DNA of 64,000 nt, from contig NW_024704742.1 of the NCBI RefSeq assembly GCF_018977255.1, positions 22,384,001 to 22,448,000 on the forward strand. The letters run 5' to 3'. Position numbers and translations under genes: made by a program. The notes below the pieces were generated by a model. It made no database searches. It saw only the letters and a program-made list of their open reading frames with translations, and was not told the DNA's origin. How positions within the stretch are numbered: the stretch's first letter is position 1; each line of letters begins with the position of its first letter. Below, piece after piece: positions 115-26,008 of this stretch. The stretch is from Callorhinchus milii (lineage: Eukaryota).

Positions 115-657
115 CTCGCAGTGATTCCACCTACACGATTCATTTTCGACCTAATTTTGTCCTCCAGGAGTCCATCCAATCCATGGCAACTGTTTGGAAC
201 CCGTATCAGGTATTTGGCTTCCGTGCAATCCGTGGCCAGTATATGGTGACGATGCGAATCGTCTGGAATCTCTGCCACCCACGCATGGCGCCTGGAGTCC
301 TTGCGAGGCTTCTGGCATCCTTGAATTTTTTGTGAGGCATTTGTTCGTGTAAGGTGTCTGGCGTTCATGCTATTTTCATAAGATGGCTTGGGTCCATGCT
401 TGGCAGCTGGAGTCCGTACAGTCTCCACCCTTGCAGTCTGCACCAGAGGTTTATAGGCTGAGCGGTTCTTGTAAAACCCACGCGCGATGTCTGCAGTCAA
501 TGCCATACTCCTGGAGTCCGCACAGTCTACACGATGGGTCTGGAGTCTTCGCAAGGCAACAGTTTCAACTACACTGCTGGGGTCTGGGCTCCGTACTAGT
601 TGTTTGGAGGCCGCTCAGACAGGCTGAGGATCCTGGAGTCCGTGCAAAGAGCTGAAC
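115..657 (-). CDS. Putative 543-nt coding exon of an unidentified gene; one in-frame TGA at 615-617, internal ATG at 506
   Basis: On the minus strand: acceptor tgtttag|G at 658/657 (weak pyrimidine tract) and donor GAG|gtaaaa at 115/114. Length is 181x3 with phase 2 at both ends. The frame is open from 614 to the donor (MALTADIARGFYKNRSAYKPLV...LDGLLEDKIRSKMNRVGGITAR). CpG-rich versus the flanks; ATG 506 has Kozak context AGTATGG. Confidence 0.5.
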
Positions 658-679
658 CTAAACAGTTACTTTCGGATGC

Positions 680-885
680 TCCGACACAGCAACATAAGAG
701 AACACGAGTTTAGGATTGCAAAGACCAATGTCAGGACACAAAACAGAAAGTTTCCCTTTACTGTGAGGTTAATTCCCAACTGGAACAGGTTACTATTACG
801 GGTGGATGAGACCAGGACATTGGGGCAGCATCGGAAAAGGAGGAGGCCATTCAACCCCTCGAATTTTATGAGATCATTTCATGTT
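680..885 (+). mobile_element. Degenerate CR1 LINE 3' end
   Basis: Translation IREHEFRIAKTNVRTQNRKFPFTVRLIPNWNRL resembles the CR1 ORF2 C-terminal motif RGHxxKL...R...RKxFFTxRVVxxWNxLP. Confidence 0.65.
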
Positions 886-1213
886 CTGCTATTTTATTGG
901 GGGGGTTAGAGCACAAGAGCCCATTTTTTGGAAGGATGAGATCATATATAGGCAAAAGACCCCTTCTTCATCCAATCTTGTGATCCTGGGCGGAGTAACC
1001 GAAGACCACATTCTGTTGCAAGCAAAAGAGCGCAATAATGTCTGGCAATGGGATGGGTGGTGGGGGGGGTATTAGCCTGAGCTTCACAGAAGTAAATACT
1101 CTCATCTATCTACAAAAAAAAATCAGTCTTCAGGGGCGCAAACAAAAATATCAAACAAACGAGATGGTATTGCTTCAGCAGATGAGACAAACGAAATCAG
1201 TAAAGATGCAGCC

Positions 1214-1972
1214 TGTGTGTGTGTGTGTGTGTGTGAGTGTGTGAGTGAGTGAGTGTGAGTGAGTGTGCGTGTGTGTTCATGAGTGAGACCGAGTGAGTGT
1301 GTAAGTCAGTGTGTGAGTGGGTGTGAGAGTGAGTGAGTGTGTGAGTGTGTGAGTGTGTGTGTGAGTGTGTGAGTGAGTGTGAGTGAGTGTGTGAGTGTGA
1401 GTGAGTGTGTGAGTGAGAGTGTGAGTGAGTGTGAGTGTGTGAGTGAGAGAGTGTGAGTGTGTGAGAGAGTGTGTGTGAGTGAGAGAGTGTGAGTGAGTGT
1501 GAGTGAGTGTGTGTGTGTGAGAGTGAGTGTGAGAGTGTGTGAGTGAGTGTGTGAGAGTGTGAGTGAGTGTGTGAGTGAGAGAGTGTGAGTGAGTGTGTGA
1601 GTGAGAGTGTGTGAGTGAGTGTGTGAGTGAGTGTGTGTGAGAGTGTGTGAGTGAGAGAGTGTGAGTGTGAGTGTGTGAGTGAGAGTGAGTGAGTGTGTGA
1701 GTGAGTGAGTGAGTGCGTGTGTGAGAGTGAGTGAGTGTGAGAGTGTGTGAGAGAGTGTGAGTGAGTGTGAGTGAGAGTGTGTGTGTGAGTGAGTGTGTGA
1801 GTGAGTGAGTGTGTGAGTGAGAGAGTGTGAGAGAGTGTGTGTGAGTGAGAGTGTGTGAGTGAGTGTGTGAGTGTGTGAGTGAGTGTGAGAGTGAGTGAGT
1901 GTGTGTGTGTGAGTGTGTGAGTGAGTGAGTGAGTGTGAGTGTGAGAGTCAGTGAGTGTGTGAGTGAGTGTGT
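1214..1972. repeat. Compound (GT)n/(GAGT)n/(GTGA)n microsatellite
   Basis: About 760 bp made almost only of GT and GA dinucleotides. Confidence 0.98.
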
Positions 1973-2016
1973 ACACGGGTATACACAAAAAGACAAGTCA
2001 ACCACAGGACATCTAC

Positions 2017-2300
2017 CTGTAAAGCAGTCACTGGCTCCGGCCCCGGGAGGGAGGGAGGGAGGGGGAGGGAGCACAGACCCTGGTGATGGAGCAGTGCTTT
2101 CTCCCTGACGGTGCGGCACAGGCGCGACTTTTGAATTAATTGCAGCCGCTGTGCAGTTAGGACCCCCCTCCCCCTCCCCCCCCGGGGGGGCGGTGCGGGG
2201 ACAGGGCGGGGACGGGGCGAGGCCGCGCCGCGGGACCAGTGGCCATCCCCGCAGGTGCGTTTGAATGTCGCGCCGAGGGCAGAGCTCGAGGCACAAACCC
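2017..2300 (-). promoter_or_regulatory. CpG island, candidate promoter with non-coding first exon
   Basis: High GC and CpG density with GC boxes (gggcgg at about 2189 and 2204). Minus-strand donor ACAG|gtagat at 2017/2016; a plus-strand donor-like CAG|gtgcgt also occurs at 2254/2255. Confidence 0.6.
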
Positions 2301-2356
2301 GACTTCTCATTGCTCTACTGTTACTGTTTAAACACATCTGTACCTTAAACACCACC

Positions 2357-5300
2357 CGCACTGGGCCTCTCCCCCACTCACTGGGCCTCTCCCCCACACA
2401 CTGGGCCTCTCCCCCCACACACTGGGCCTCTCCCCCCACACACTGGGCCTCTCCCCCACACACACTGGGCCTCTCCCCCACACACTGGGCCTCTCCCCCC
2501 ACACACTGGGCCTCTCCCCCCACACACTGGGCCTCTCCCCCCACACTGGGCCTCTCCCCCACACACTGGGCCTCTCCCCCCACACACTGGGCCTCTCCCC
2601 CACACACTGGGCCTCTCCCCCCACTCCCCACACACTGGGCCTCTCCCCCCACCCCCCACACACTGGGCCTCTCCCCCCACACACTGGGCCTCTCCCCCCA
2701 CACACTGGGCCTCTCCCCCCCCCCCCACACACTGGGCCTCTCCCCCCCCCACACACTGGGCCTCTCCCCCCCCACACTGGGCCTCTCCCCCCACACACTG
2801 GGCCTCTCCCCCCACACACTGGGCCTCTCCCCCACACACTGGGCCTCTCCCCCACACACTGGGCCTCTCCCCCCCACCCCCCCCCCCACTGGGCCTCCCC
2901 CACACACTGGGCCTCTCCCCCACACACTGGGCCTCTCCCCCCACCCCCCACACACTGGGCCTCTCCCCCCACACACTGGGCCTCTCCCCCACACACTGGG
3001 CCTCTCCCCCACACACTGGGCCTCTCCCCCCCACACTGGGCCTCTCCCCCCACACTGGCCTCTCCCCCCCCCCCACTGGGCCTCTCCCCCCCCCACTGGG
3101 CCTCTCCCCCCCACTGGGCCTCTCCCCCCCACACTGGGCCTCTCCCCCCCCACACACTGGGCCTCTCCCCCCACACACTGGGCCTCTCCCCCCACACACT
3201 GGGCCTCTCCCCCACACACTGGCCTCTCCCCCACACACTGGGCCTCTCCCCCCCCACCCCCCCCCCACTGGGCCTCTCCCCCCCCCCACTGGGCCTCTCC
3301 CCCCACACACTGGGCCTCTCCCCCCACACACTGGGCCTCTCCCCCCACACACTGGGCCTCTCCCCCACACACTGGCCCTCCCCCACACACTGGGCCTCTC
3401 CCCCCCCACACACTGGGCCTCTCCCCCCACACACACTGGGCCTCTCCCCCCACACACTGGGCCTCTCCCCCCACACACTGGGCCTCTCCCCCCCCCCCCA
3501 CTGGGCCTCTCCCCCCACACACACTGGGCCTCTCCCCCACACACTGGGCCTCTCCCCCCCACACACTGGGCCTCTCCCCCCACACACTGGGCCTCTCCCC
3601 CACCCCCACACACTGGGCCTCTCCCCCCACACACACTGGGCCTCTCCCCCACACACTGGGCCTCTCCCCCACACACTGGGCCTCTCCCCCCACACACTGG
3701 GCCTCTCCCCCACCCGCACTGGGCCTCTCCCCCCACACACTGGGCCTCTCCCCCACACACTGGGCCTCTACCCCCCCCCACACACTGGGCCTCTACCCCC
3801 ACCCGCACTGGGCCTCTCCCCCACACACTGGCCTCTACCCACACCCCCCCCCCCCACACACACTGGGCCTCTCCCCCACACACTGGGCCTCTCCCCCCCC
3901 CGCACTGGGCCTCTCCCCCCACACACTGGGCCTCTCCCCCCACCCCCACACACTGGGCCTCTCCCCCACACACTGGGCCTCTCCCCCCACAGACTGGGCC
4001 TCTCCCCCCACACACTGGGCCTCTACCCCACCCCACACACACTGGGCCTCTACCCCACCCCACACACACTGGGCCTTTACCCCCACACACTGGGCCTCTC
4101 CCCCACACACTGGGCCTCTACCACCCACACACACTGGGCCTCTCCCACACACACTGGGCCTCTCCCCCCACACACTGGGCCTCTACCCCCACCCCCACAC
4201 ATACTGGCCTCTCCCCCCACACACTGGGCCTCTCCCCCCACAGACTGGGCCTCTCCCCCCACACACTGGGCCTCTACCCCACCCCCCACACACTGGGCCT
4301 CTACCCCCACACACTGGGCCTCTCCCCCCACCCCCACACACTGGGCCTCTACCCCACCCCACACACACTGGGCCTCTATCCCCACACACTGGGCCTCTCC
4401 CCCCCACACACTGGCCTACCCCACCCCACACACTGGGCCTTTACCCCCACACACTGGGCCTCTCCCCCACACACTGGGCCTCTACCCCACCCCACACACA
4501 CTGGGCCTCTACCCCCACACACTGGGCCTCTCCCCCCACCCCCCACACACTGGGCCTCTACCCCCACACACTGGGCCTCTACCCCCACACACTGGGCCTC
4601 TACCCCCCCCCCCCCACACACACTGGGCCTCTACCCCCCCCCCCCCACACTGGGCCTCTACCCCCCACACACACTGGGCCTCTACCCCCACACACTGGGC
4701 CTCTACACCCCCCCCCCCCCGCACTGGGCCTCTACCCCCACACACTGGGCCTCTACCCCACACACACTGGGCCGCTACCCCCACACACTGGGCCTCTCCC
4801 CCCACCCCCCACACACTGGGCCTCTCCCCCCCACACACACTGGGCCTCTCCCCCAACACACTGGGCCCTCTCCCCCCACACACGGGCCTTTACCCCCACA
4901 CACTGGGCCTCTCCCCCACACACACTGGGCCTCTACCCCACACACTGGGCCCTCTCCCCCACACACTGGGCCTCTACCCCACCCCACACACACTGGGCCT
5001 CTCCCCCCACACACTGGGCCTCTCCCCCCACACACTGGGCCTCTACCCCACCCCACACACACTGGGCCTCTCCCCCACACACTGGGCCTCTCCCCCCACA
5101 GACTGGGCCTCTACCCCCCCACACAACTGGGCCTCTACCCCACCCCCCACACACTGGGCCGCTATCCCCACACACTGGGCCTCTCCCCCCACACACTGGG
5201 CCTCTACCCCAACCCCCCCCACACACTGGGCCTTTACCCCCACACACTGGGCCTCTCCCCCCACACACTGGGCCTCTACCCCACCCCACACACACTGGGC

Positions 5301-6900
5301 CTCTACCCCCACACACTGGGCCTCTCCCCCACCCCCCACACACTGGGCCTCTACCCCCCACACACTGGGCCTCTACCCCCCCACACACTGGGCCTCTACC
5401 CCACCCCCCCCCCACACACACTGGGCCTCTACCCCCCCACACTGGCCTCTACCCCCACACACACTGGGCCTCTACCCCCACACACTGGGCCTCTACACCC
5501 CCCCACCCCCCCCCCCCGCACTGGGCCTCTACCCCCACACACTGGGCCTCTACCCCCCCCCCCCCCACACACACTGGGCCGCTACCCCCCCCCCCCCACA
5601 CACTGGGCCGCTACCCCCCCCCCACACACACTGGGCCTCTACCCCCACACACTGGGCCGCTACCCCCCCCACACACTGGGCCTCTACCCCACCCCCCACA
5701 CACTGGGCCGCTACCCCCCCATACACTGGGCCTCTACCCCACCCTCCCACACACTGGGCCGCTACCCCCACACACACACTGGGCCTCTACCCCCCACACA
5801 CACTGGGCCTCTACCCCCACCCCCTCTCCATACACTGGGCCTCTACTCCCCCCCCCCCCCCCCCGCACTGGGCCTCTACCCCCCACACACACTGGGCCTC
5901 TACCCCCCCCCCACACATACTGGGCCTCTACCCCCCCCCCCATACACTGGGCCTCTACCTCCCACACACACTGGGCCTCTAACCCCCCCCCCATACACTG
6001 GGCCTCTACCCCCCCCACACACACTGGGCCTCTACCCCCCCCCTCCCACACTGGGCCTCTACCCCCCCCACACTGGGCCTCTACCCCCCCCCACACTGGG
6101 CCTCTCCTGCCCCCCACACTGGGCCTCTCCCCCCCCACACACTGGGCCTCTCCCCCCCCACACACTGGGCCTCTCCCCCCCCCACACACTGGGCCTCTAC
6201 CCCCCCACACACTGGGCCTCTACCCCCCCCCACAAACTGGGCCTCTACCCCCCCCACACTGGGTCTCTACCCCCCCACTGGGCCTCTACCCCCACACACT
6301 GGGCCTCTACCCCCCCCACTGGGCCTCTACCCCCCCCACACTGGGTCTCTACCCCCCACTGGGCCTCTACCCCCCCCACACTGGGCCTCTACCCGCCCCC
6401 CCCCCACACTGGGCCTCTACCCCCCCACACTGGGTCTCTACCCCCCACTGGGCCTCTACCCCCCCCACACACTGGGCCTCTCCCCCCCACACACTGGGCC
6501 TCTCCCCCCCCACACACTGGGCCTCTACCCCCCCCCCCCACACTGGGCCTTTACCCCCCCACACACTGGGCCTCTACCCCCCCCACACACTGGGCCTCTA
6601 CCCCTCCCCACACTGGGTCTCTACCCCCCCACTGGGCCTCTACCCCCACACACTGGGCCTCTACCCCCCCCCACACTGGGTCTCTACCCCCCCACTGGGC
6701 CTCTACCCCCCCCCCCCACACTGGGTCTCTACCCGCCCCCCCCCCCACACAGGGCCTCTACCCCCCACACGCACTGGGCCTCTACCCCCCACACACTGGA
6801 TCTCTACCCCCCCACTGGGCCTCTACCCCCACACTGGGCCTCTACCCCCCCCCCCTCCCCCACACAGGGCCTCTACCCCCCACACTCTGGGCCTATCCCC
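2357..6900. repeat. C-rich minisatellite, unit about (CA)nCTGGGCCTCT(C/A)(C)n, 18-30 bp
   Basis: Roughly 200 tandem copies of ACACTGGGCCTCT followed by variable C runs; the CTCTC variant dominates on the left and CTCTA on the right. Confidence 0.98.
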
Positions 6901-8090
6901 CCCCCCACCCACCCACACTGGGCTCTGGTCTCTAACCCCCCACCACAACACTGGGCTCTGGGTCTCTAACCGCCCCTACACTGGGTTCTGGGTATCTAAC
7001 CCCCAACATTGGGCTCTGGGTCTCTAACCCCCACCCACACTGGGCTCTGGGTCTCTAACCCCCCCCCCCCAACACTGGGCTCTGGGTCTCTAACCCCCCA
7101 CCCCAACACTGGGCTCTGGGTCTCTAATCCCCTAACACTGGGCTCTGGGTCTCTAACCCCCCAACACTGGGCTCTAGGTCTCTAACCCCCCAACACTGGG
7201 CTCTAGGTCTCTAACCCCCCAACACTGGGCTCTGGGTTTCTAACTCCCAATACTGGCTTCTGGGTTTCTAACCCTCAATACTGGGCTCTGTGTTTCTACC
7301 TCCCCCCTCCCCCATACTACCCACTCTGTTTGTAAGCCCCCAATACTGTGCTTTGTGTTTCTACCCCCCCCCCCCCCCCCCACACACTTCAATACTACCT
7401 ATTTTGCTTCTAATCCCCTAATACTGGACTCTGGGTTTCTAACCCCCCCCCCCCCCCAATAATGGGCTCTGTGTTTCTGCCCCCCATCCCCATAATATCC
7501 ACTCTGTCTGTAAGCCCCCAATACTGGGCTCTGTGTTTCTACACCCCCCCTCTCAATAATACCTATTTACTTCTAATCCCCCAATAATGGGCTCTGGGTT
7601 TCCTACCACCAATACTGGGCTCTATGTTTCTAACGCCCCAATACAGGGCTCTTGGTTTCTAACCACCAATACTGAGGTCTGGGTTTCTAACCAACCCAAT
7701 ACTGGGCTCTGTGTTTCCCCTACCAGTACTGGGCTTTGGGTTTCTAACCACCCCCCAGTACTGGGCTCTGGGTTTCTGCCCCCGCGCCCCCAAAATGATG
7801 ATTGCATAAATTCATCCTCTATTGTGTTCCAGAAAGAAAACCAATCACCATCACTGATGGCCTCAGGTATCCAATCATGTGCACTGATGGCCTCACCAAT
7901 ATGGTCAGGGACAGAGCCCCAGCCCCAGTATTGTTGATCTGAGAACCCCAGCTCCAGTACTGAAGCCCAATTAACCTAACTCCCAGTATTGGGGGTCCTG
8001 GAAACCAAGCCTAATGCATTGATTTGCTAGAAATACAACACCACAGTATTGGAAGCCCTGGAAACTCAGCCTCATTATTGGAGACCCATC
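6901..8090. repeat. Degenerate older part of the same minisatellite
   Basis: Units drift from ACACTGGGCTCTGGGTCTCTAACCCC to AATACTGGGCTCTGTGTTTCTA; reverse-complement units (CCCAGTATTG) appear at about 7910-8090. Confidence 0.85.
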
Positions 8091-8250
8091 AGTTGCTGTG
8101 CGTTGGATTTCCATAACTTTATTATTGTCCTCTACCTCCAGGTAATTTGTGATTCTCCACACAGGTACAGTATTTTGTGATTATTTTCAACCCCCTACCC
8201 CCCATAATACAATAAACCATCAAGTGTACAAAAATAAATGAAGCACTCAC

Positions 8251-8303
8251 CCAATTTATGTTCCAAGGCCAGTCTGCTGAACTGTTCCATGAACCAACTT
8301 GAC
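8251..8303 (-). other. Possible 53-nt cassette exon
   Basis: Acceptor tttgattgacag| and donor |gtgagt; open on phase-2 entry (SSWFMEQFSRLALEHKL). No homology recognised. Confidence 0.3.
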
Positions 8304-8544
8304 CTGTCAATCAAACAGGTATGTGGATGTTCTGCTGCTGGAGAACATATGTCGGAGCAGAGGGTTTTCATTCAGCAGCTCACTCTGGAGCTAACGGCTG
8401 ATCTAACACAGAATTGGATCTAGGTGCTCCTGAGCTCAGAAATGCATTGGTTGGTTGCAATTTGCTTCAAGAAAAAGGCCCAATTCTCAAGACAGTGATA
8501 ATATAAATATACTGTCATTAAAACCTCAGCTGACCTCATTTTCA

Positions 8545-8800
8545 ATAATATTAATATTTGATGTAGCACCTTTCACCTCAGGAAGATCAAAACACTTCAC
8601 AGCATTTTACTGAAAGTGTAGTGACTACATATGTGATAGGCAAAATTTGTATACAGCAATTTCCCAACAAACAGCCATGAAGTGAATAAACAATTTTATT
8701 TGGGGGCTTGTTGGCCAAAATACCAGGAGAGACTCCTTTCAGTTTTTGAATAGTGCCATGGGATCTTTAAAGTCCACCTGAACAGGCAAGTAGATCTCAG
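8545..8800 (-). mobile_element. Old Deu-domain SINE fragment with L2-like tail
   Basis: tagtgccatgggatctttaaagtccacctgaacaggca is the reverse complement of the Deu domain. Confidence 0.75.
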
Positions 8801-10847
8801 GAGCAAGTTTTATATTCTCAATGCCTTTCATTAAGCATTAGATTAAGACAGCATTAGATCTGTAGACAGCATGAGCAAGAATACAGACATTGTGATGTAC
8901 ACAAACTGAATTTGTTGCGTCAATTGCAGCTTTCAGGTTGCGACCTCTCCTTTGTGAAACTCACAAATCCCAAGTCACCAACAGCCATATAAAATCCAGC
9001 AAACACAAGTGAGCAAAATTGACAGCTATTTTGCTTATCTATTTTTGACTCACGATTTCTAGGCCACACATTGCATTATGAATTTGACAAACTAAAAGTC
9101 AGAATTAAATCCCTTTGTTTGGTCTGAAGTTTACAACATTTATGCTCTAAAACAGATTTTCAAATGAAAAAACAGCATGTAAGTTTTTTAACCCATCAAT
9201 CATGAAAAATACTAATTAGAGGATAACAAATTTTAATTTGCTACATGTAATAAAATTGAAACATGAATAATACAATATTCAGAATGTTATTCCAACTACA
9301 AAAAAAAATAATCAGTTAAATGATGAGGAACAATTACATCCATCTATAAGATTACACCACAATTTTCATTTGGGAAGCATCATGGCATAAAACTGGTGCA
9401 AAAGTTACAGTATATAATATCAATCACACTCCAATTTGGCTGCTCCAACTCTGCCAAGATCCAGCAAAGTGGAACGGTAAAGTTTATAGACTATCCAGTT
9501 TAATAGCTGGAACAAACACAATACCCCAGAAGCCAATTGTCATTATGGCACAACAGAATTATGACCAAATTTTATTCAAAACAATGGTTGTGCAATTGGC
9601 TCTACGGTAATAATATTAGTCTATTGAACATTTCTATTTGACAGAAAGCTTTTAATTCCAGAATAAGCAAATTTTGATTCAGACCCACCTTATCTCTACC
9701 TACAGTGAGAGATAAATTCCTCAGCTCTTGAAGTCTGGGCTCCAGCAAAATGGCACTACAAAGCTCCACTCTAGTGACAATCCTAAAGAGATCCTACCTA
9801 AACTATGCTCAGGTTGTTTCTGACTTACAAATATTACAACTTAGACACATCTTAGAGACTCAAGTAAATATGACAGATGAAGATACTGTAGTTCTCATTT
9901 ATTATTAATATTGTTTATTTTATTGTCTAAAAATACTCCAAATTAACCTTGCATTAACATTGTTTGGTAACACTGAAAATCACACAGTAAGGACCACATT
10001 TGTATACACAAAGGAGGTTAACAATACTCTATAGTGTAAGGAAGAAGCTTGTGCTCCCAAGAACACAAACAAGACCGTTTTACATACCTAACTTGTTAAG
10101 ATCATTTTTATCATATAGACACAAACAGCTTTTAACCAGTCAACATTTATTTTCCATTACCAAAATAGTTGAATGATGAGCGCTCAAGCCTCTGTGCCTC
10201 GATGCACTCACTTGTCAGCAGAATTCATGGTCAAGAATGCACAGACCTGGTACCCCAGGTCGTGGGGGGCACATCCAGTTACAGAAATGCACCTTATTCC
10301 CTTTACACCACCTTCAGCACAGAACTCAATATTAAAAACTAGTCCACATTCATACAAAAAATGACCCTGAGATTTGCACAGGTGTGGTGAAGTCAGGTTG
10401 GTGATGAGGAACTCAGCAGTGTGTAGGCTGCATGGAGAGCTCGAATGGCTGGCGTCTCCGGAGAAATAACTGTAGTTATACTTCTCTCCCTCAACATCAG
10501 TGCTCAGATTTTGGGTTCTCAGGCTCCCTGACACACCAGGCCATGGAGATACCCAGGATATTTCCAGGTACAGAAACATAACACCCATTATCCCTTAATA
10601 CCACCTTCACCACAGACCTGACTTTCCAGACCTCCAATAATCATCAAACCTTCTGCTGAGCAAGTGTCATTCTTTTACTCTCTTCCGCTTTTTAAAAGTC
10701 ATTTTCGTTATATTGTTTTTCAGCTACAATTTATATGAAAAATTAAAATGGTTATTTTGGACATATAAAATTAAGATAACAGGTTTGGATATGTGACAGC
10801 ATAAAGGTGGTTTATAGTCTAAATCTTCTTGTATCTATAATCTGTCT

Positions 10848-11324
10848 TCTATACTAATAAAACAACAATGTCTGTCTGCGCTTCAAGAAGGATCTCAATA
10901 ACCGATTGACTTAGAGACATGATTTATACCTCATTGGAAAGATTTTACATCTGGGAGTGACATGGGCATATTGGGGTCACCAAGTCAAAGTGGCGCTGCG
11001 GCAGCGAGGGTTACAAAGCACCTACACTGCAGTAACACCTGGTGCCCGCGCCGGCTGACCGTAGTGCTATAGCATCCCGCATCACAGAGCACGCACATAG
11101 CCAAGTGGCGGGAACAAAGTAAAGAACACTGACGAAGCTAAGCCGCAGAAACATCAACAAAATTACATTCTTAAAGTACTGAGTCCTCCCAAAAGGAATC
11201 CACCCACAGGAGTCCTCCAGATGAGTGTAAAGATGAAATGTCTGTCTGTGTGTTGTCTGTATGTCAATCTACATTCCATATTGGATCCTTTAGTTGCAAG
11301 CAAAGCTGCAACGGGTACAACTAG
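10848..11324 (+). mobile_element. Non-autonomous Helitron, about 480 bp
   Basis: 5' end TCTATACTAATAAAA (alternative start after an A at 10834). 3' hairpin gttgcaagc-aaa-gctgcaac (11293-11312) followed by gggtacaaCTAG and then T. No TSD. Confidence 0.8.
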
Positions 11325-11879
11325 TTAAGCTATAAAGGGGCCTTCTCCGAAATAATATTTCTTCCGGTGATTTTTACTTGGTTATTAGCACCACCTATAT
11401 TTTACAAACACATATGGAAAACTAAATTAATATTTTCCCAGGATATTGCACATGTTTTGTACAAAGGGTAGCATTTCTACAGTATTTACTTTGAGAATTT
11501 GACAGTTTAGCAGTGAGCAGAAGAAAATAAAAGTCGGCAATGTAAATAAATAATAATAATAATCCTTATATTTGATATAGTGCCATAACCATGTTTTGCC
11601 TGAATAGCTGTCCATGTTTTGAATACAAGGATAAATTTATTGTAACAAGCTTTGGATTACCCCATTATGCAGTTTGGATAAAATTGATTTGTAACACTTA
11701 GTATATGTAAATGTGGTTTATGGATTGTGATATTGAGTAATGGAATTGGATTTTAGCAGCGATGACTAAAGGCACTTTAGTGGAGGAAGTGTAGCTTTAT
11801 CCAGTGTAATTAAACTATTTAAAAGTCAGTATATTGCAAATTCCATTCTCATTACTGCAGTGATCAATGGATCTCATAT

Positions 11880-12135
11880 ACCATTCCCTGAATGCGAGAA
11901 AGTAAACCCAGAACAATACTTTCAGATGCACTGACAGCAGAAACAAGAAATTTTAGTACATATTTCTTTACCCAGAGGGTAATTAACAACAAATTTGTTA
12001 CCAAGTGTGGTGATTGAGGTCAGGACACTGGACTTATTTAAAATTAATGCTGTGATGGGACGACAGCAGGATAAGGTATTCTGGAAGGATGAGGTCAAAA
12101 TAGGCTGAAGAGCCTTCTTCATTCAAAACTCTCAT
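11880..12135 (+). mobile_element. CR1 LINE 3' fragment
   Basis: Shares cagaacaatactttcagatg, tatttcttta, ggtaattaacaac, ctgtgatggga and aggatgag..caaa blocks with the CR1 copy at 35480-35845. Confidence 0.7.
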
Positions 12136-14174
12136 GAAGCTTCCACATTACATCTGATAATGCATGCACTAAAAACGAAAGAAATAATAATTTGAAAAAC
12201 CTTTTGTTTGTTCCATTCCATTTTGTTTTCATTATTAAAAACAACCATATCATTTGAGACAAAACCCTTTTGCACTCCAGCAATGTTTCACATTTTGGCA
12301 ATTTTCGGAAATCGAAGATTCCAATCTGATTGTTCAAGCCGACTGTCTCGAATTAGCTCATCTCCACCAGTTTTAATAATATTACAAATTAACCCCCCAT
12401 TTGTTGTAAATTATTGAAGAAAGTGTAGATGGCAAAATGTTAATTCCTCAACCATGTGAGGAGCACATGGTTAAGACTTATTTTATGACAGAGTATTTGG
12501 AGAGATGCTAAAAAACTTTCTTCTTCCTCAATAAGACTCTACAAAGTATTTCAACTTTAATTTCACCAACCAACTATGCTTCTTAGTCTGTAGTTTTACT
12601 GTACACCGTCTTATCAAAAATGTATTGCATTTTCCTAATAGTATTCATCTGACTCTTTCATCCAAGTTACTTCTTTGAAAGAACAGAGTATATAATACTG
12701 TAAATAGAATAATTCATGATATGCTATGAAATATGAAGTTTTCTGCACTAGAGTTGAGATTTTGAATTCCTACATAATGTAGTTGCTCCCAAGTTTTTTC
12801 TTCTCCAAGGAAAATGAGACTCCCAGATTCCACAACTGTTCACACATAAGCCTTTGAATTATCTCAGAAAAATCAACAATCATAAGCTTTAATTTCAATT
12901 GCTTTCCCTTTTCTTTAGGGGAAGGCACCTTATTACCGTCAAACCTTTTCACACCATAGTACCTGTGTTCCCTTTGCCAATCCAACCCAATTTAATAATC
13001 TTTATAATAAGCAAGTGAAAAAGATATGAAGAAGAACCTCATTTTCAAGGTTTTTGTTCTATGATGATTGTTGATAAGTGTTTTACTGCTCTGAAACAAT
13101 TCACTGCACTGAGAAGCACAATGATAGTTTACTGGAGAGTATAACATTTGCTCTGTGATTTAATTTCAGAATGTATATTTTAAAATTATAAACAATTTTT
13201 GCAGATTTACAATGGCTGGAATACTGTGCTGCTTTTATTTACAATGTGAAAAAGATTTCCATAATTCAAGCATGCTTGCAGCATTCCTGTGTCACAGGTC
13301 TTTCCCAGTTGTAACTGTGACATGGTTTATTACATTTTTTGTGGTTATTTTGATTACCTGAGACTGAATAATTCACTGGAATAAATTTAAATAAAACTAT
13401 TTACATATCTGAATTGTCAATGAACAGTTTGGCACACTTCCGAATCACCTGGCATATACGGTGAACTGAATAACATATCAGTAACATTGAATTAAAGCCA
13501 TTAAAGTAGTCATATAGTATGGAACTTTCATGCTTATGAAAACAAAGTAAAACTAAGGAAGGTAATTAAAATATATATATAGGTGTGAATTTTACCGCAT
13601 TTCAAAGTGGAATTATTACATTAAATCTGTTATCAAACAATAGAATTTCAATGGATTATTATTGATTGGCTTCAACTCTTAACCTCTCTTTCCCAACTAT
13701 GAGACTATGGTTTGTTCCATAGAAACTTTTCAAAACCATGTGGCTGCCATCTTTTTTCAGACAGACCAAAATAAAACAGATCGAATCTAACCTTTTGAAT
13801 TACTGTGTTCAAACAAATATATATTTTGAATGTTTTTCAACCATCCAATTGTAACTAAAAGAGTATGTTATGGCCTGCATATAGGTGTGAATTTTACCGT
13901 ATTTCAAACTGTACATGGAAGTTACTTTGATTTTAACGTAGTTGGGCATAAAATCATGAGTACAACTTTCACAACACTGCAACTAGGAAACCAGAATTCA
14001 TGGTATTCTGTAACTGCAGTATTTTTGTTGTAGGACTGTTGACCACTCTATTCTCCACCAATTCTCCTCCTAGACACACTTGCATTACTCCTGGTTTCAC
14101 TCTTACCTGTGCTAGGGTCTTCACCATCTTATCTAATGGATTATCCTCTTGTCCACACATAGTCATGTGTAACG

Positions 14175-14820
14175 ATCCCTAATGCTCCATCCACAGTCCT
14201 CTTCTTTCTATCAGCTTGGTAACATTATCCACAGGCATGGAATCTACTTCGCATATATATGTAGATGACACACAACTCTACCTTTCTCTCTCTGGGGTAA
14301 CTTCGGGACCACTGCTGCTCTGATAGATTTCATGTCAATCACAGATTCTGGATGAACTGCAACTTTCTACAAATAAACTTCAACAACACTGCAGCTATCC
14401 TACTTAATGCTTGTCAGCACTTCCTTACTTCAGGCACTGACCTCCCAGATTGGTTACCCAATTCACAGAGCCTGTACTGAACCTCCGCATTTTGTTCAAC
14501 CATCAGCTCTCCTTTAAACCTTTCAACTGGCTATGACCAAGTGCACTTGCCTCCATCTACGCAACATTGTCTGCCTCCGCCACTCCTTTACCCCGCACCA
14601 TACAACCCCCTGTTTTTTTCACCTCCAGACTCAACTGTTCAAAGCGCTGCTTGTCCATATCTGCAGCTCCACCCTCCACAAGCTGGAGACCACCTAGAAC
14701 TCCACAGTCTATATCCTGTCCTGAATCAGACTCCACAAGTCCATTCCCCTTCCACCCCATTTTCACCCAGATCCACTGGCTTCCAATCTCCCCAAATGGA
14801 GTGATTTTAAGATACTTTTT
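14175..14820 (+). mobile_element. Degenerate L2 LINE RT fragment
   Basis: tatgtagatgacacacaactctac (YxDDTQLY), acctccagactcaactgttc (TSRLxxxN), atccactggcttccaat (xHWLP). Confidence 0.8.
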
Positions 14821-14824
14821 CTGA

Positions 14825-15090
14825 ACTTTATTTGGGGGACTGTTGACTAGGTCATCGCAAGAAGCTCTTCTCTTTTCGAATAGTGCCGTGGCATCTTTAA
14901 CATTCACCTCAACAGGTAGATGGGACCTCGGTTTAACACCTCATCCGAAGGATGGCACTTCCGACAATGCAACACGCCCCTAGCACTGGATTGGATTGGC
15001 ATCTTAAACAATGTGATTCCAATTCCCGAGGTGGGATTTGAACCCACAACTGTACGACTCAGAGGCTACCACTGAGCCGAACTGGCACAC
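14825..15090 (-). mobile_element. Deu-domain SINE with tRNA-like head
   Basis: Deu core gcatctttaacattcacctcaacaggtagatgggacctcggtttaacacctcatccgaagg; B-box-like ggatttgaaccc on the reverse strand. Confidence 0.85.
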
Positions 15091-16062
15091 TTAAATAATA
15101 CAAATTCATAGCCAAAATATTTTTTAAATGAAGCCATTTGATGCTTATTAACCAGGTTGCAAGCCTAAAATAGAAACCTGCAAAACCAAGATGCATCTGT
15201 AAATTGGGGATAATGACAATTTAAACAACAGTCTGAGCACCAAACAAATTCAGTGAAGAATAACCTATTACTGTTTATAAATAAATTAAGCCTGTCAAAA
15301 GATAATTTAATGGTGCAACTAGTATTTCAGGGACTTGTACTTCCTCATACACCTAGTATTGAAACTCTAAAGGGAGAAAAATTTCAAGATTTTTATGCAG
15401 ATCCTAATATAATGTATACAATTCTACTGCACTTTTTTAATCGTATACATATATATTTAAAAAACACACCCCTAATACAAGGATCATAAGAAATAATTGT
15501 AAGTTTGTCACAAATCATCTTCTTGTTACAAATTAATGCATGCAAAAAAACACAATTACTTAAACTATACTACTATAGAACACCTTAAAAGAATAGACAG
15601 CTATTAATAAACAATGATACTATTTTCCACATAACTCCTCCTGGAAAATTTGACACATATGTAAATTGTTACATTTTCACAATTGCACACTCATTACAGT
15701 TATCGTGAATTTACATAAATTCAACAATGAACCCAAAATAAAACACTACAGTATGTGAACTCTTCTGCCAATTCAGTTTTCAAGCTATTTTAAAAGCTTT
15801 CAAAGCAATATTTTTATAACCAGCATGTCAAAGCTGGTTGACAAGCTAAAAAAGGATACTGCTAATATGGTCTACATAGTTTTTATGACTGCAGGAACAA
15901 ATGCTAATTTCAGCTAACACATGTAAAATTTATACTTAATTTATTCTTGGTTGTTGTTCCATAGCCTTCAATGCATAGTATATAGCCAATCGTTCTCTCA
16001 GCTGAGAGAAAAGTTTTAAGGCAATATGTTTTACTAATTGAAATCTGCAGAGGTAGACTTAC

Positions 16063-16152
16063 ACATTAACTTCATATTTGGAGAGTCTCGATTGTTCATT
16101 CTGTTTTTTCAAGCGTTTTGCTGTTGCTATTCTTTCCTGCCGTGTTGGTATC
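16063..16152 (-). CDS. Coding exon 3 (90 nt, phase 2-2) of unidentified minus-strand gene
   Basis: Acceptor tttcttgtttccag| and donor |gtaagt. Joins in frame to exon 2 and reads (R)IPTRQERIATAKRLKKQNEQSRLSKYEVN(V). Confidence 0.75.
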
Positions 16153-16389
16153 CTGGAAACAAGAAATTCCCATTAGATATAATTTCATTGCTTTGAAAAG
16201 CTTGTTTTTCTTTTTTAACTGAGGACTAGTGGTTTCAGAAATAGAAAGTGTCCAACATTGCATTTCTTTGCCCATCATGAGCACTTGCATTTAACACTCA
16301 TCTGAATCCATTTTAGTGAGTTCAAAGTCCCGATATAGGGCTCAACCCATAACTTTCTAACTCTGAAGCATTAATACCATAATTTTTGC

Positions 16390-16620
16390 AATGCCTCACT
16401 TTCCAGCCTTCCCAACTGCACCCTCTGAACTCCCTTCCAAAATCCCTTTGCCTCGCCCCTTCCTCTCGGCTTTCAAATCCAACCTAAAGTCTTACTACAG
16501 TACCTAACTGTGCTTTTAGCCTCCCCGAGCTCCCAGCTCAGGCTCTCTCTCACTCAGTCTGTAAACCACAATGAGATATTCTGTGATTGTGAAAGGTCCT
16601 ATATAAGTGCAGACTGTTGA
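16390..16620 (+). mobile_element. L2 LINE 3' end fragment
   Basis: ctctgaactcccttcc...ccctttgcctcgccccttccctc...ttcaaatcc...gtgaaaggtcctatataagtgca, as in other L2 tails in this window. Confidence 0.6.
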
Positions 16621-16672
16621 AAGCACAAAACATTCAAATGCTGTTATAAAAATTAATCAAAAGCACACTTGC

Positions 16673-16788
16673 CTGTAAGTTGGCTTTGGAAATTGACTAG
16701 ATGGTGCCGAAGCACAAATTGCCTGCTGCAGCGGCAAACTGGGAAGCCCCCCTGGGCACTGGCCTGTAATAGCTGATAAAATACTCAT
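16673..16788 (-). CDS. Coding part of exon 2 (exon 16673-16836) with start codon
   Basis: Acceptor aatttattgcag| at 16837/16836; ATG at 16788 (ACAATGA); reads MSILSAITGQCPGGLPSLPLQQAICASAPSSQFPKPTY; donor ACAG|gcaagt (GC-AG intron). Confidence 0.7.
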
Positions 16789-17211
16789 TGTAACTGTACA
16801 CTAAGCCAGGTAGAGCGATCCAGAGATATTGAAATCCTGCAATAAATTAATAGAGTTCACAGATTTAGCCAAGTTTTGATCTGGAGAGAAATTTTTTATC
16901 CCCTGTTCTTCCATATCTCAACTCGCCTTGTAAATGTTTCACATTTGCTGACCGAGATTGTAGTTCACAAAACGACAATCGTGAATAATTAAAAGAAACA
17001 CTGGTTTCTTTTAGTTTAATTGTAGTTTTTTTAAAAAATTATTCTAATCAAGAACAACAGCAAACAGTTTTAAAAAAGAAAAGTTGCAATAACTCCTTTG
17101 TCTAAACAATTTCTTGACAGAATAAAATGTTTACGTGTTCACATTAATGGTAAAATGCATTGTGTTGATCACCCTGATGTGATAGTTGTATTCACTTTGC
17201 TGCTAATAGGT

Positions 17212-17425
17212 TTCAGTCTGGCGTAGTTGGTAGCACTCTCACCTCTGATTTCAAACATTGCGGGTTCAAGTTAGAAATCTAGGCTGCGCTCCAATACAGT
17301 TCTCAGAGTATGCTGCATTGTCAGGTTACTGACTTTCAGATGAGATGCTAAACCGAGGTCCCATCTGTCTGTTCGGGTGATTAATAAAGATACCATTGGA
17401 TTATTTGAAAAGAGAAAGGAGTTTC
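17212..17425 (+). mobile_element. Deu-domain SINE, 5' part
   Basis: tRNA-like head tggcgtagttggtagcactctcacctctga...gggttcaag, then Deu core ctttcagatgagatgctaaaccgaggtcccatctg. Confidence 0.8.
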
Positions 17426-17465
17426 AACTGAAAAAGAGACTGGATGAGTGCCTTTTCACATAACT

Positions 17466-17792
17466 GGAGTCCTGTAGCTCAGTGGTTAGAGCACTCGCTT
17501 TGCAAGCGAGAGACCTGAGTTCAATTCCAGGCAGGGTGAAACCTTGGGCAAGTTTCCTTACTCCACACGCCTAATAATAATCCCTTCAAAAAACAAACAA
17601 AAAACAATAATAAATTGGTCATTTTCAATCTACGACTGTTTGTGGGACATTGCTGTGCGCAATTGGCTGCCACGTTCGCCCACAAATATACAGTCAATTC
17701 ACTTTACAGTGTGTTCTGTGAAGCGCTTTGGGACGTCCTCCCGACGTGAAAAGCGCTATATCAAATGCAAGGATTATTATTATTATTATTAT
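17466..17792 (+). mobile_element. Young full-length tRNA(Ala-like)-derived SINE with L2-like tail
   Basis: A box tagctcagtgg, B box gagttcaattcc, body ccttgggcaagt..., tail tgaagcgctttgggacgtcctcccgacgtgaaaagcgctatatcaaatgcaagga(tta)n; several near-identical copies in the window. Confidence 0.95.
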
Positions 17793-17819
17793 AACATCTC
17801 ACAGGATTTACTCCAGATT

Positions 17820-18140
17820 GTACTGACTGTGTAGGCCAATGCTGCAGCCCATTTATGCACAGCAGTGTCCCACAACCAGCTATGAAGTGAATGACCAGTT
17901 TTATCGAGGATTCTTAGCCGAGACATCAGGAGAAACTCTCTTCTCTTTTTGAGTTATACCATGGGATCTTTAACGTCCAATTGCATAGGCAGACGGGACC
18001 TCGGTTTAGGGTTTCATTCGAAGAATGGAACCTCAGACTTCCCAGTACTGTACGGGAATGTCAGCCCAAACTATGTGAGTTCAAATTCATAACGTTTTGA
18101 TTCAAAAGCCAGAGTCTTGCCAACTGGCCCAGGCTGAGAC
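17820..18140 (-). mobile_element. Deu-domain SINE
   Basis: ccatgggatctttaacgtccaattgcataggcagacgggacctcggtttag (reverse Deu core). Confidence 0.8.
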
Positions 18141-19523
18141 ACATTTAATCAAATTTACGCAATTACCACATTTTAGATCCCCACCTCCACTGTTTCAGGT
18201 ATTTGTCAACAACCATAGAGTAATTATTCTATCAAGGAAACTCTTCAAAATTGATCAAAGCGGTTTTCTGTATTTATATTTTCACAAAAAAACAATAAGG
18301 ATCATGTTATTTTTCAATTTCTCAATTCAGCATTTCACTAAAGACAACATTTTAGCAACATTTATTCCTAAATGGAACAGTCAAATCAAATCAATACCAT
18401 TACTAACAGATACAAAAGACTGATTTTAGTATGTCTAAAAACTAATACGTTTCAGACAAAAACTGAATACATACATTTGAAATTAGCTTTCAGCAGAAAA
18501 CAAGATATTTCAAGAATGACGAGCAAATAATACATTTAGAATGATAGAGGAATTTATTTTGCCAATTTGGGCTTAAAATGTAATGCTGTGATTACCGATC
18601 ATTGCATCTAAAACTCCATCCAAAGGGATTTAATAATGAAAGCGGATTTCATGAATTAAGTTCACAGCATTAAAATTATGTTTGCGGTTTGGTGTTTCTA
18701 TCATTGCTGGGATTAACCTCAGTTTCAAATGTAGGTAGAGATTAGTCAGTTAAGTAATTGTTGAAACTAAATGACAAACAGGATGCAGGACCAAAGGGCA
18801 ACAAAATACTGTACCCCAAAGCTGCCTCGATGGGATGTTAGTAAGCCAGTGAATGTTTTGCTGGTTGCCTTGCATCCGAGCCGAGGCCAAAACACATCAC
18901 TGCTGCGGTTTCAATCACATCGCATTTATGTACGTTTGCGAGGGGGAATCGGGTCTATCACCAACTGACAGGAAGAGAGAGCGTGGGAGGGTGAGGGGGG
19001 GGGGGGGGAGAGAAACTTTTCAGACATTAACAAAGTGTTTGTCTCGGAGTGAGTTATTGGAGCTTATGACGCAGGTTGGGATAAAGCCAAGTAGCCTAAT
19101 ATCTCGAGCAGAAAACACCCGCAGCTGCAGTTAAACAAACAGAAGGAGTAAATAATATCCTCGACACACACACACCACACACAACAAGCGTAGATAGAGA
19201 GCAAGTGTCAAGTTAGCAAGAGTTGCAACCTTGTGTCAGACCCCCAGGGATCTAGATAAGACAAGTGGAAGAGTTTTAACTCACTTCTCGCCCGCTGGAG
19301 AGACAGACAGAGAGGGAGAGGGAATAGATTGTATTGTGTTGTAACGCAGTGAACTGTAGACCAGGCAACCAATTTGTCACAGCGGGAAATGTGCTGCACT
19401 GGTCACAGCAACTGAGAGAGAGAGAGAGAGAAAGAAAGAGAGTGAGTGATGGAGGGAGGAGAGACAAGAGAAGAAAGGAAGGAAAAGAGAGAAAAGAGGG
19501 GAAGAAGGTTGATGGGAAGAAGT

Positions 19524-19850
19524 GGAGTCCTGTAGCTCAGTGGTTAGAGCACTCGCTTTGCAAGCGAGAGACCTGAGTTCAATCCCAGGCAGGTCAGGGC
19601 GAAACCTTGGGCAAGTTTCCTTACTCCACACAGATCCTAATAATAATCCCTCCAAAACCAAAAACAATAATAAATTGGTCATTTTCAATCTACGACTGTT
19701 TGTGGGACATTGCTGTGCGCAATTGGCTGCCGCGTTCGCCCACAAATATACAGTCAATTCACTTTACAGTGTGTTCTGTGAAGCGCTTTGGGACGTCCTC
19801 CCGACGTGAAAAGTGCTATATCAAATGCGAGGATTATTATTATTATTATA
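19524..19850 (+). mobile_element. Young full-length tRNA-derived SINE (same family as 17466)
   Basis: Near-identical to 17466-17792. Confidence 0.95.
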
Positions 19851-19879
19851 AGTTGTGTGTGTAGTTAACACATCAGGGC

Positions 19880-21320
19880 TGGTGTCAGGGCTCCTCGGGG
19901 CTGTGTGTGAGTTAGTGAGTGAGCACTATCGGGGCTGTGAGTGAGTTAGTTAGTGAGCACTCTCGGGGCTGTTAGTTAGTGAGTGAGTTAGTTAGTGAGC
20001 ACTATCAGGGCTGCTCGGGGCTGTGAGTTAGTTAGTGAGTGAGTGAGTTAGTTAGTGAGCACTATCAGGGCTGCTCGGGGCTGTGAGTTAGTTAGTGAGT
20101 GAGTGAGTTAGTTAGTGAGCACTATCAGGGCTGCTCGGGGCTGTTAGTTACTTAGTGAGCACTATTGGGGCTGCGAGTCAGTTAGTGAGTTAGTGAGCAC
20201 TGTCAGGGCTGCTCGGGGCTGTGAGCTAGTTAGTTAGTGAGCACTATCGGGGCTGTGAGTTAATTAGTTAGTGAGCACTATCAGGACTGCTCGGGGCTGT
20301 AAGTTAGTTAGTGAGTGAGTTAGTTAGTTAGCACTATCAGGGCTGTGAGTTAGTTAGTGAGTGAGTTAGTTAGTGAGCACTACCAGGGCTGCTCGGGGCT
20401 GTGAGTTAGTTAGTGAGTGAGTTAGTTGGTGAGCACTATCGGGGCTGTGAGTTAGTTAGTGAGTGAGTTAGTTGGTGAGCATTATCGGGGCTGTGAGTTA
20501 GTGAGTGAGTTAGTTGGTGAGCACTATCAGGGCTGCTCGGGGCTGTGAGTTAGTTAGTTAGTGAGTGAGTGAGTTGGTGAGCACTATCAGGGCTGCTCGG
20601 GGCTGTGAGTTAGTTAGTTAGTGAGTGAGTGAGTTGGTGAGCACTATCAGGGCTGTGAGTTAGTGAGTGAGTTGATGAGCACTGTTGGGGCTGTGCGTTA
20701 GTGAGTGAGTGAGTTGGTGAGCACTGTCGGCGCTGTGAGTTAGTTAGTGACACAGTGAGTTGGTGAGCACTGTCGGGGCTGTGAGTTAGTGAGTTGGTGA
20801 GCACTGTCGGGGCTGTGAGTTAGTGAGTGAGTGAGTGGGTGAGCAGTGTCGGGGCTGTGAGTCAGTGAGTGAGTGAGTTGGTGAGCACTGTCGGCGTTGC
20901 TCGGGGCTGTGAGTTAGTTAGTGAGTGAGTTGGTGAGCACTGTCGGCGCTGCTCGGGGCTGTGAGTGAGTGAGTTGGTGAGCACTATCGGGGCTGTGAGT
21001 TAGTGAGTGAGTTAGTTGGTGAGCAGTATCAGGGCTGCTCGGGGCTGTGAGTTAGTTAGTTAGTGAGTGAGTGAGTTGGTGAGCACTATCAGGGCTGTGA
21101 GTTAGTGAGTGAGTGAGTTGATGAGCACTGTTGGGGCTGTGCGTTAGTGAGTGAGTGAGTTGGTGAGCACTGTCGGGGCTGTGAGTTAGTTAGTGAGTGA
21201 GTGAGTGAGCACTGTCGGCGCTGCTCGGGGCTGTGAGTTAGTTAGTGAGTGAGTGGGTGAGCACTGTCGGCGCTGTGAGTTAGTTAGTGAGTGAGTGAGC
21301 ACTGTCGGCGCTGCTCGGGG
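19880..21320. repeat. Minisatellite, unit about GTGAGT(TAGT/GAGT)nGAGCACT(A/G)TC(A/G)GGGCT(GCTCGGGGCT)
   Basis: About 35 tandem units of 30-60 bp directly visible. Confidence 0.97.
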
Positions 21321-21345
21321 TTGGGGGTCTCGAGCTGTTACTCAC

Positions 21346-21441
21346 CGCCGCCGCCACAACCTGAGTCTCGGCGTCTCCTTGACAACCGCGCGAGCGTCAC
21401 CACCACAAGGGCGGGAACCGGGGCACGTGCGGCCCCGCGCC
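21346..21441 (-). promoter_or_regulatory. CpG-island promoter and non-coding exon 1 of the minus-strand gene
   Basis: CpG-dense block with donor GCG|gtgagt at 21346/21345, GC box gggcggg, E-box CACGTG (about 21424) and an RFX X-box at 21373-21386. Confidence 0.75.
21373..21386. promoter_or_regulatory. RFX X-box GTCTCCTTGACAAC
   Basis: Close match to the 14-bp X-box pattern (GTYNCY-AT-RGNAAC type), located at a putative TSS. Confidence 0.6.
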
Positions 21442-23095: not shown

Positions 23096-23392
23096 CGCCA
23101 GGTAACTCCCCTCTCCCAGCGGCCAGTGGCCAGGTCACTCCCTCTCCCCGCGGCCAGCGGCCAGTGGCCAGGTCACTCCCTCTCCCCGCGGCCAGCGGCC
23201 AGGTCACTCCCTCTCCCCGCGGCCAGGTCCCTCCCAGCGGCCAGGTCCCTCCCAGCGGCCAGGTCACTCCCAGCAGCTGGGTCACTCACAGCAGCCGGGT
23301 CACTCACAGCAGCCGGGTCACTCCCAGCGGCCGGGTATCTCCTGCTCCCAGCGGCCAGGGCACACCCGCTCACCGTGGCCGGGTCACACCTG
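23096..23392. repeat. Degenerate related units (GCGGCCAGGTCACTCCC) flanking the array
   Basis: ggccaggtcactccctctccccgc and cagccgggtcactcac repeats share the GGTCACTC core. Confidence 0.85.
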
Positions 23393-25994: not shown

Positions 25995-26008
25995 GTCACC
26001 ATGGCAAC
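25995..26008. promoter_or_regulatory. RFX X-box GTCACCATGGCAAC
   Basis: Essentially perfect match to the RFX consensus GTNRCCATGGYAAC, 4.6 kb upstream of the gene promoter. Confidence 0.55.

What the first reader, a model, noticed from the sequence alone, without database searches (positions are those of the whole stretch)
115..21441. Unidentified minus-strand gene with an X-box promoter, a GC-AG intron and a possible second internal promoter
Seen: exon 1 donor in a CpG island (21346); exon 2 (16836-16673, ATG 16788, GC donor); exon 3 (16152-16063). These splice in frame to MSILSAITGQCPGGLPSLPLQQAICASAPSSQFPKPTYRIPTRQERIATAKRLKKQNEQSRLSKYEVNV. Exon 3 ends in phase 2, matching the phase-2 start of the exon at 657-115. 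Established: X-boxes at a TSS mark RFX-regulated, often ciliary or testis, genes. Inference: an uncharacterised, possibly ciliary gene continuing left of the window. I do not recognise the protein family.
Basis: partly seen in the sequence, partly recalled or inferred. Interest (0 to 1): 0.7.

Follow-up and report, generated by a model that had tools for sequence, protein, structure and literature searches.

The report
Elephant-shark TTC29 with two N-termini
The 'unidentified' gene is the known cilia and sperm-tail gene TTC29 of the elephant shark; its one odd feature is a second, internally started form whose front end has no relative found elsewhere and seems to come from an old decayed DNA repeat.

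Summary
The gene is TTC29 of Callorhinchus milii, a known axonemal TPR protein. This supports the GC-AG intron and the ciliary guess. One strict X-box lies at 21373-21386.

The proposed junction 16063>657 is wrong. It stops at codon 83, and the exon's acceptor in use is 678.

Exon 678-115 is an alternative first coding exon with ATG at 506, already annotated (XP_007897349.1). Contigs of 3 of 3 RNA-like runs join it to the common exon. It is fed by leader exons ending at 2017 (run X1) and 8251 (run X3), so internal transcription starts are likely.

Its 130-residue N-terminus has no credible homologue in four searches. It lies on a decayed repeat of about 49 nt. Translation and tissue are untested.

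Verdict: known gene, both isoforms already in databases. The residual interest is modest and lies in a probably repeat-derived, lineage-restricted N-terminus. An earlier scan note on this same stretch mentioned the twin CpG-island layout.

The parts
21454..23117 (.). G-rich 27-28 nt minisatellite directly upstream of promoter P1
   Evidence: TRF; 69% G on the gene's sense strand
21373..21386 (-). X-box-like site at promoter P1
   Evidence: fits the strict consensus of PMC2375033; binding not tested
21346..21441 (-). probable non-coding exon 1a (5' end unknown), donor after 21346
   Evidence: sequence; CpG o/e 0.99; junction to exon 2 not tested with reads
19895..21319 (.). CACT-rich compound tandem repeat at the start of intron 1
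   Evidence: TRF
16673..16836 (-). TTC29 exon 2; CDS from ATG 16788
   Evidence: 100% identical to V9KTG9 residues 1-39
16153..16672 (-). GC-AG intron (CAG|GCAAGT ... TTCCAG|G)
   Evidence: inferred from the database protein, no reads laid here
16063..16152 (-). TTC29 exon 3, phase-2 donor; joins the common exon left of the window
   Evidence: 100% identical to V9KTG9 residues 39-69; tblastn hits of 5 shark/ray TTC29 proteins at 45-56% identity, E 1.5e-6 to 2e-3
8251..8267 (-). 3' end of an extra leader or internal exon (5' end unknown), donor TGG|GTGAGT, spliced to 678
   Evidence: loose end of one contig of run X3; located
2359..6850 (.). G-rich 21-nt minisatellite directly upstream of promoter P2
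   Evidence: TRF; 58% G on the sense strand
2017..2360 (-). CpG-rich internal promoter P2 and leader exon 1b, donor CAG|GTAGAT after 2017, spliced to 678 (only 2017-2041 seen in a contig)
   Evidence: loose end of one contig of run X1; located; GC 0.64, CpG o/e 0.69, no X-box match
1214..1972 (.). CACT/CA microsatellite at the start of the P2 intron
   Evidence: TRF
115..678 (-). alternative first coding exon: 172-nt leader with in-frame stops at 668-666 and 617-615, ATG 506, 130 codons plus phase-2 donor; decayed repeat of about 49 nt (20+29)

Best explanation
This is the 5' end of Callorhinchus milii TTC29, with two mutually exclusive N-termini on one shared TPR core encoded left of the window. 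(1) Promoter P1 at about 21.4 kb (CpG-rich, one X-box, probably RFX-driven: inferred) gives exon 1a > exon 2 > GC-AG intron > exon 3 > common exon. Its product is the conserved 472-aa protein (shown at protein level), which by orthology helps dock inner dynein arm d together with ZMYND12 (inferred from literature). (2) Internal starts (CpG-rich P2 at about 2.0-2.3 kb, and an exon ending at 8251) splice to exon 678-115 and on to the same common exon (splicing shown in contigs). Scanning from the exon's first AUG at 506, with a purine at -3 and G at +4, would give a 534-aa isoform in which a 131-residue basic, probably disordered segment replaces the conserved 69-residue N-terminus (translation inferred, about 60%). 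Two in-frame stops ahead of AUG 506 prevent any fusion of the two N-termini, so exon 3 > exon 678 transcripts would be non-productive. The exon most likely arose by exonisation of a decayed non-coding minisatellite of about 49 nt (inferred).
For: V9KTG9 (P0003) and A0A4W3IE88 (P0122) begin with the exon 2+3 translation and continue into the core. A0A4W3HPK5 and XP_007897349.1 begin with 506-117 at 100% identity and continue into the same core. The core search returned 208 proteins at E<=1e-20, and nearly all named rows among the 120 listed are TTC29. P0003 carries TPR families and matches the solved TTC29 chains 8j07_d3, 9d2f_L and 9fqr_Fp at E 5e-113 to 5e-109. The human donor variant c.176+1G>A, p.Tyr60* (table in PMC13583038) places a phase-2 intron at the same point as donor 16063. 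In one search, 3 of 3 RNA-like runs (2 studies) show a loose end at 115 whose letters translate to the start of the common exon. X1 joins 2017>678 and X3 joins 8251>678, while the genome-sized run X7 runs on unspliced. The frame is open for 166 codons back from the donor, matched in 1, 7, 23 and 40 of 5000 null sequences under four models. The other two frames of 506-115 hold 5 and 4 stops. Of the 3 variants seen in the exon, the one in the CDS (228) is synonymous and the one at -3 (509) keeps a purine. A 9-mer family occurs 7 times (0 of 500 simulations reach this), and autocorrelation peaks at lags 49, 20 and 29 (0 of 300 simulations).
Against: There is no peptide or ribosome evidence for AUG 506. 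One synonymous variant says almost nothing about selection. A repeat-derived sequence can be poor in stops by origin: the chance of 0 stops in the fixed frame given 9 in the three frames is only 0.026, and an open frame of at least 130 codons appeared in up to 125 of 5000 null sequences. TRF finds no array in the exon even at score 30. My hand-cut units average 46% identity against 33-42% for shuffled units. Each upstream junction rests on one contig of one run with 23 and 16 loose letters. The runs are only guessed to be RNA, and were chosen because they hold this exon. Exon 1b has upstream ATGs at 2337, 2310 and 2246 that close before AUG 506 or out of its frame, and could lower its use, depending on the unknown start site. 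No reads were laid on the P1 exons. An X-box alone does not predict RFX control (PMC2375033).
Confidence: 0.88

Rival explanations
1. The gene identity and splicing are as above, but exon 678-115 is not translated into a stable protein. It is a leader or poison exon: initiation is damped by upstream ORFs or shifts to a Met inside the common exon, and exon 3 > 8251 > 678 transcripts are degraded by nonsense-mediated decay.
For: No homologue of the 130 residues. Several shark and ray annotations start at the internal Met of the core (P0142, P0144, P0153, P0154). All 16 candidate acceptors upstream of donor 8251 give an early stop (codon 71-114) when placed after exon 3. Upstream ATGs are present in both leaders.
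Against: The first AUG of the exon is in the one open frame and in a strong context. The open frame is rare under the null models. RefSeq and a UniRef model both use it, though these are predictions.
Confidence: 0.35
2. One reading: an uncharacterised gene in which exons 2, 3 and 657-115 are consecutive coding exons.
For: Exon 3 and the exon ending at 115 do share phase 2.
Against: The join stops at codon 83 with acceptor 657, or codon 73 with 678. Contigs use 678. V9KTG9 skips the exon. The protein is TTC29.
Confidence: 0.01
3. Exon 678-115 is a captured fragment of another gene or of a mobile element, not a decayed local repeat.
For: CpG o/e of 0.68 is high for this window. One weak hit (E 2.5e-5) among 1.84 billion representatives.
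Against: That hit is a plant NB-ARC-LRR protein whose score is summed over LRR repeats (best pairwise stretch 28.5 bits). No Pfam family matches. No second copy in the window. The 49-nt period is not a multiple of three, and motif copies lie in all three frames.
Confidence: 0.1

Closest known systems
C. milii TTC29, UniRef V9KTG9 / A0A4W3IE88 (P1 isoform) and RefSeq XP_007897349.1 / UniRef A0A4W3HPK5 (internal isoform)
   Same: 100% identical to exons 2-3 and to 506-117 respectively.
   Different: Nothing at protein level. What is added here is the acceptor at 678, two upstream junctions and the repeat origin of the exon.
Human and mouse TTC29, Chlamydomonas p44 (docking factor of inner dynein arm d with ZMYND12/p38; MMAF infertility gene)
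   Same: TPR core and N-terminal approach to the core align. The phase-2 intron before Tyr60 is shared. Function per PMC10629824 and PMC10266980 (passages read).
   Different: None of the 160 other TTC29-search proteins held resembles the alternative N-terminus (phmmer, only P0001 and P0002 pass). Function of the elephant-shark protein was not tested.
Xenopus ttc29 in the Rfx2 target programme (PMC3889689, passages read)
   Same: An X-box-like site at P1 fits RFX control.
   Different: P2 has no X-box match. No binding data exist here for C. milii.
Alternative first coding exons and exonisation of non-coding repeats (general class, from my own knowledge, no paper read)
   Same: An internal promoter plus a new exon that supplies its own AUG in frame with a conserved core.
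   Different: The source here looks like a decayed minisatellite rather than a SINE or LINE; not proven.

Membership tests
TTC29 orthologues | Best matches are TTC29 over the core | tested here: met
TTC29 orthologues | TPR repeats in the core | tested here: met
   P0003 passes the Pfam cut-offs for TPR_12, TPR_8, TPR_7, TPR_1, TPR_2 and others; the core is encoded left of the window
TTC29 orthologues | Conserved N-terminal approach to the core and phase-2 intron just before it | tested here: met
   alignment; human c.176+1 donor
TTC29 orthologues | Synteny next to POU4F2 (PMC3206014) | not testable with these tools
   no genome held; no other coding gene recognised in the window (33 ORFs scanned, only 2 RT fragments)
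TTC29 orthologues | Axonemal location and binding to ZMYND12/DNAH1 | not tested
   literature only
RFX/X-box target promoter | Consensus X-box close to the start site | tested here: met
   P1 21373-21386, strict consensus, 52 of 5000 shuffles; not met for P2
RFX/X-box target promoter | RFX binding or conservation of the site across species | not testable with these tools
   no vertebrate genomes or ChIP data available
GC-AG intron | GC donor with strong consensus that is actually used | tested here: met
   CAG|GCAAGT; only this donor reproduces V9KTG9; no reads laid
Alternative first coding exon | Spliced to the common exon from an independent upstream leader | tested here: met
   115>common exon in 3 of 3 RNA-like runs; 2017>678 in 1, 8251>678 in 1; start sites not mapped
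Alternative first coding exon | Translated from its own AUG | tested here: inconclusive
   open-frame statistics and AUG context only
Exonised minisatellite | Tandem periodicity above chance, period not tied to codons | tested here: inconclusive
   motif and autocorrelation tests positive; TRF negative; no non-coding ancestral copy seen

The most novel reading that the evidence does not exclude
A decayed 49-nt minisatellite beside an internal CpG promoter has become a de novo coding exon. It gives a conserved inner-dynein-arm docking factor a chimaera-specific, 131-residue basic N-terminus in place of its ancestral one, as a translated, tissue-restricted (for example sperm) isoform made from non-RFX promoters.
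Probability: 0.3. Interest if true: 0.45.

Novelty: already known. Interest (0 to 1): 0.2.

Why it matters
As posed, it does not: the gene is TTC29 and both proteins are in public databases. What remains is a tidy case of N-terminal swapping on an axonemal docking factor. If translation and restriction to chimaeras hold, it would be a clear vertebrate example of new coding sequence born from a minisatellite, and a natural test of what the N-terminus of TTC29 does. It also corrects the gene model: acceptor at 678, two leader exons, and no exon 3 > 657 junction.

Tried and rejected
Atlas search with the exon 2 frame: no usable hit. Atlas search with residues 1-130 of P0002: no feature hit, all structure rows TM 0.29 or less. 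Near-length homologue search for 506-117: 4 candidates, none at E<=0.01. Longer-length search: only P0001 among 399 candidates. The single hit was rejected as an LRR repeat artefact. Structured RNA in exon 678-115 was rejected (z 1.13, 83 of 100 shuffles fold as well). Rfam found only 5 tRNA-like matches in the window; the two I aligned are heads of a near-identical SINE-like repeat. My exon finder was too strict and found no further TTC29 coding exon; tblastn of P0001 and P0122 found none either. The statistic 'no ATG upstream of 506' was dropped because it holds by definition of the first ATG. P1 and P2 showed only low-complexity similarity of their CACT repeats, so a duplicated promoter is not supported. 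One search listed no holder on record as RNA; this is not used as evidence either way. One search timed out and was rerun. No structure model of either isoform was obtained, so disorder rests on composition alone. Paper searches TTC29+isoform+'alternative promoter' (0 papers), TTC29+Callorhinchus and TTC29+'elephant shark' (1 paper each, PMC3206014, about a teleost enhancer) found no description of the second isoform; subscription journals are largely not covered. The pattern used was recalled and was found in no paper, so I re-tested with the consensus of PMC2375033.
Full report
Observation. The last step fails. Joining exon 3 to 657 gives a stop at codon 83, and the AG before 657 is a poor acceptor on my rough matrix.

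Identity. The open frame at 611-114 found one protein among 399 candidates: UniRef A0A4W3HPK5, TTC29 of Callorhinchus milii, 100% identical over 506-117. Its cluster partner is RefSeq XP_007897349.1. A search with the core (residues 125-330) gave 208 proteins at E<=1e-20, of which 120 were listed, nearly all named TTC29. Among them V9KTG9 begins with the exon 2+3 translation (residues 1-68 identical, residue 69 split by the intron) and continues directly into the core, skipping the exon near 600; A0A4W3IE88 does the same. That V9KTG9 derives from cDNA is my recollection and was not checked. Five shark and ray proteins hit exon 3 by tblastn at E below 0.05, and the alignment of 24 sequences shows the N-terminus leading into the core across jawed vertebrates. 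P0003 carries TPR families and matches solved TTC29 chains at E about 1e-113. In chain 8j07_d3, taken as human because Ile41 and Tyr60 fit the numbering in PMC13583038, the core begins at Tyr60. The donor variant c.176+1G>A listed in that paper (passages read) puts a phase-2 intron exactly where donor 16063 lies. Only the GC donor reproduces V9KTG9; 3 nearby GT options do not.

Known function. From passages read: TTC29 forms an axonemal complex with ZMYND12 and DNAH1, and its loss causes flagellar malformation and infertility (PMC10629824). The ZMYND12/TTC29 pair, equivalent to p38/p44, associates with inner dynein arms d and g (PMC10266980). Xenopus ttc29 came from the Rfx2 target set and is needed for ciliogenesis (PMC3889689). 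There is one X-box, 21373-21386, fitting the strict consensus of PMC2375033 (passages read). Ten such sites lie in the window and 52 of 5000 shuffles of the promoter stretch contain one. The same paper warns that an X-box alone does not predict RFX control. PMC5024701 (passages) added nothing specific; its consensus table is in a supplement I did not open.

The second exon. I laid 4 of the 12 listed runs on 1-1200. X1, X3 and X4, guessed to be RNA and from 2 studies, each show a loose end at 115 whose letters translate to the start of the common exon. The genome-sized run X7 runs through unspliced. X1 also has a contig that continues from the exon into the intron at 1-114. X1 and X3 cover the exon up to 680 and 679. 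Their loose ends map to 2019-2041 and 8252-8267, each followed by a GT donor (after 2017 and 8251), which fixes the acceptor at 678. X4 covers only 115-482. Tissue, start sites and levels cannot be read from contigs. The 2.0-2.36 kb region is CpG-rich without an X-box match; the 8.25 kb region is CpG-poor, with one loose-consensus match at 8334. Whether the 8251 exon is a first exon or follows exon 3 is open; all 16 candidate acceptors tested would stop the P1 frame early.

Is it coding? The first AUG of the exon (506) has a purine at -3 and G at +4 and lies in the one open frame. In-frame stops at 668-666 and 617-615 block any read-in from upstream. The frame is open for 166 codons back from the donor, seen in 1 to 40 of 5000 null sequences; 130 codons or more were seen in 6 to 125 of 5000. 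The other two frames hold 5 and 4 stops; the chance of none falling in the fixed frame is 0.026. Three variants fall in the exon: one synonymous, one at -3 that keeps a purine, one in the leader. This is suggestive, not proof; I put translation at about 60%. The segment has net charge +11 and falls on the disordered side of a charge-hydropathy line; the conserved N-terminus (+7) sits on the line. No homologue was found among the 162 proteins held apart from P0001 and P0002, in two homologue searches, in Pfam or in the Atlas. The one hit among 1.84 billion representatives is a plant LRR artefact. These searches contain no other chimaera that I could identify, so the age of the exon is unknown.

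Origin. A 10-nt motif occurs 9 times with up to 2 mismatches (0.11 expected from the rest of the window; motif chosen after inspection), in all three frames. In a test that re-chooses the best motif each time, 0 of 500 simulations reach the observed 7 copies. Autocorrelation peaks at lags 49, 20 and 29 inside the exon and not in its flanks; 0 of 300 simulations match it. TRF finds nothing, and hand-cut units are only 46% alike against 33-42% for shuffled ones. The simplest reading is an old minisatellite of about 49 nt, like the arrays that surround both promoters, later exonised. A period that is not a multiple of three argues against a protein repeat, but a repeat origin also weakens the open-frame statistic.

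Verdict. Searches found no paper on the second isoform; PMC3206014 (passages) concerns a teleost enhancer recycled from a ttc29 exon. No supplements were opened. Earlier scan notes were not used as support. Interest 0.2; 0.45 if the repeat-born N-terminus proves translated and lineage-specific.

Noticed in passing
window 1214-6850 and 19895-23117: Both promoters have the same layout on the sense strand: a kilobase-scale G-rich minisatellite upstream (58-69% G) and a CACT-rich repeat just past the first donor, with unrelated units.
   Followed up: partly
window 25995-26008: Near-palindromic strict X-box about 4.6 kb upstream of P1; a possible distal RFX site.
   Followed up: no
window 23277-23313: Three strict-consensus X-box matches arise from an 18-nt repeat in the CpG-rich patch on the far side of the P1 minisatellite.
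   Followed up: no
window 8251-8560: Unannotated exon end spliced to 678 in run X3, in AT-rich, CpG-poor DNA; either a third start or an internal poison exon.
   Followed up: partly
window 17469-17538, 19527-19596, 30731-30802, 36425-36496, 49743-49814: tRNA-Ala-like calls. The first two are the heads of two about 95% identical SINE-like copies; the others were not aligned.
   Followed up: partly
window 45993-46723: Broken reverse-transcriptase fragments of a LINE-like element on the minus strand.
   Followed up: no
window 6907-7777: A further 28-29 nt decaying minisatellite adjoining the P2 array.
   Followed up: no
P0147-P0149, P0151, P0152 (Narcine bancroftii TTC29 models): These models carry an unrelated in-frame insert of about 33 residues at the same intron before the core, so this intron has gained an exon independently in a ray.
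   Followed up: no
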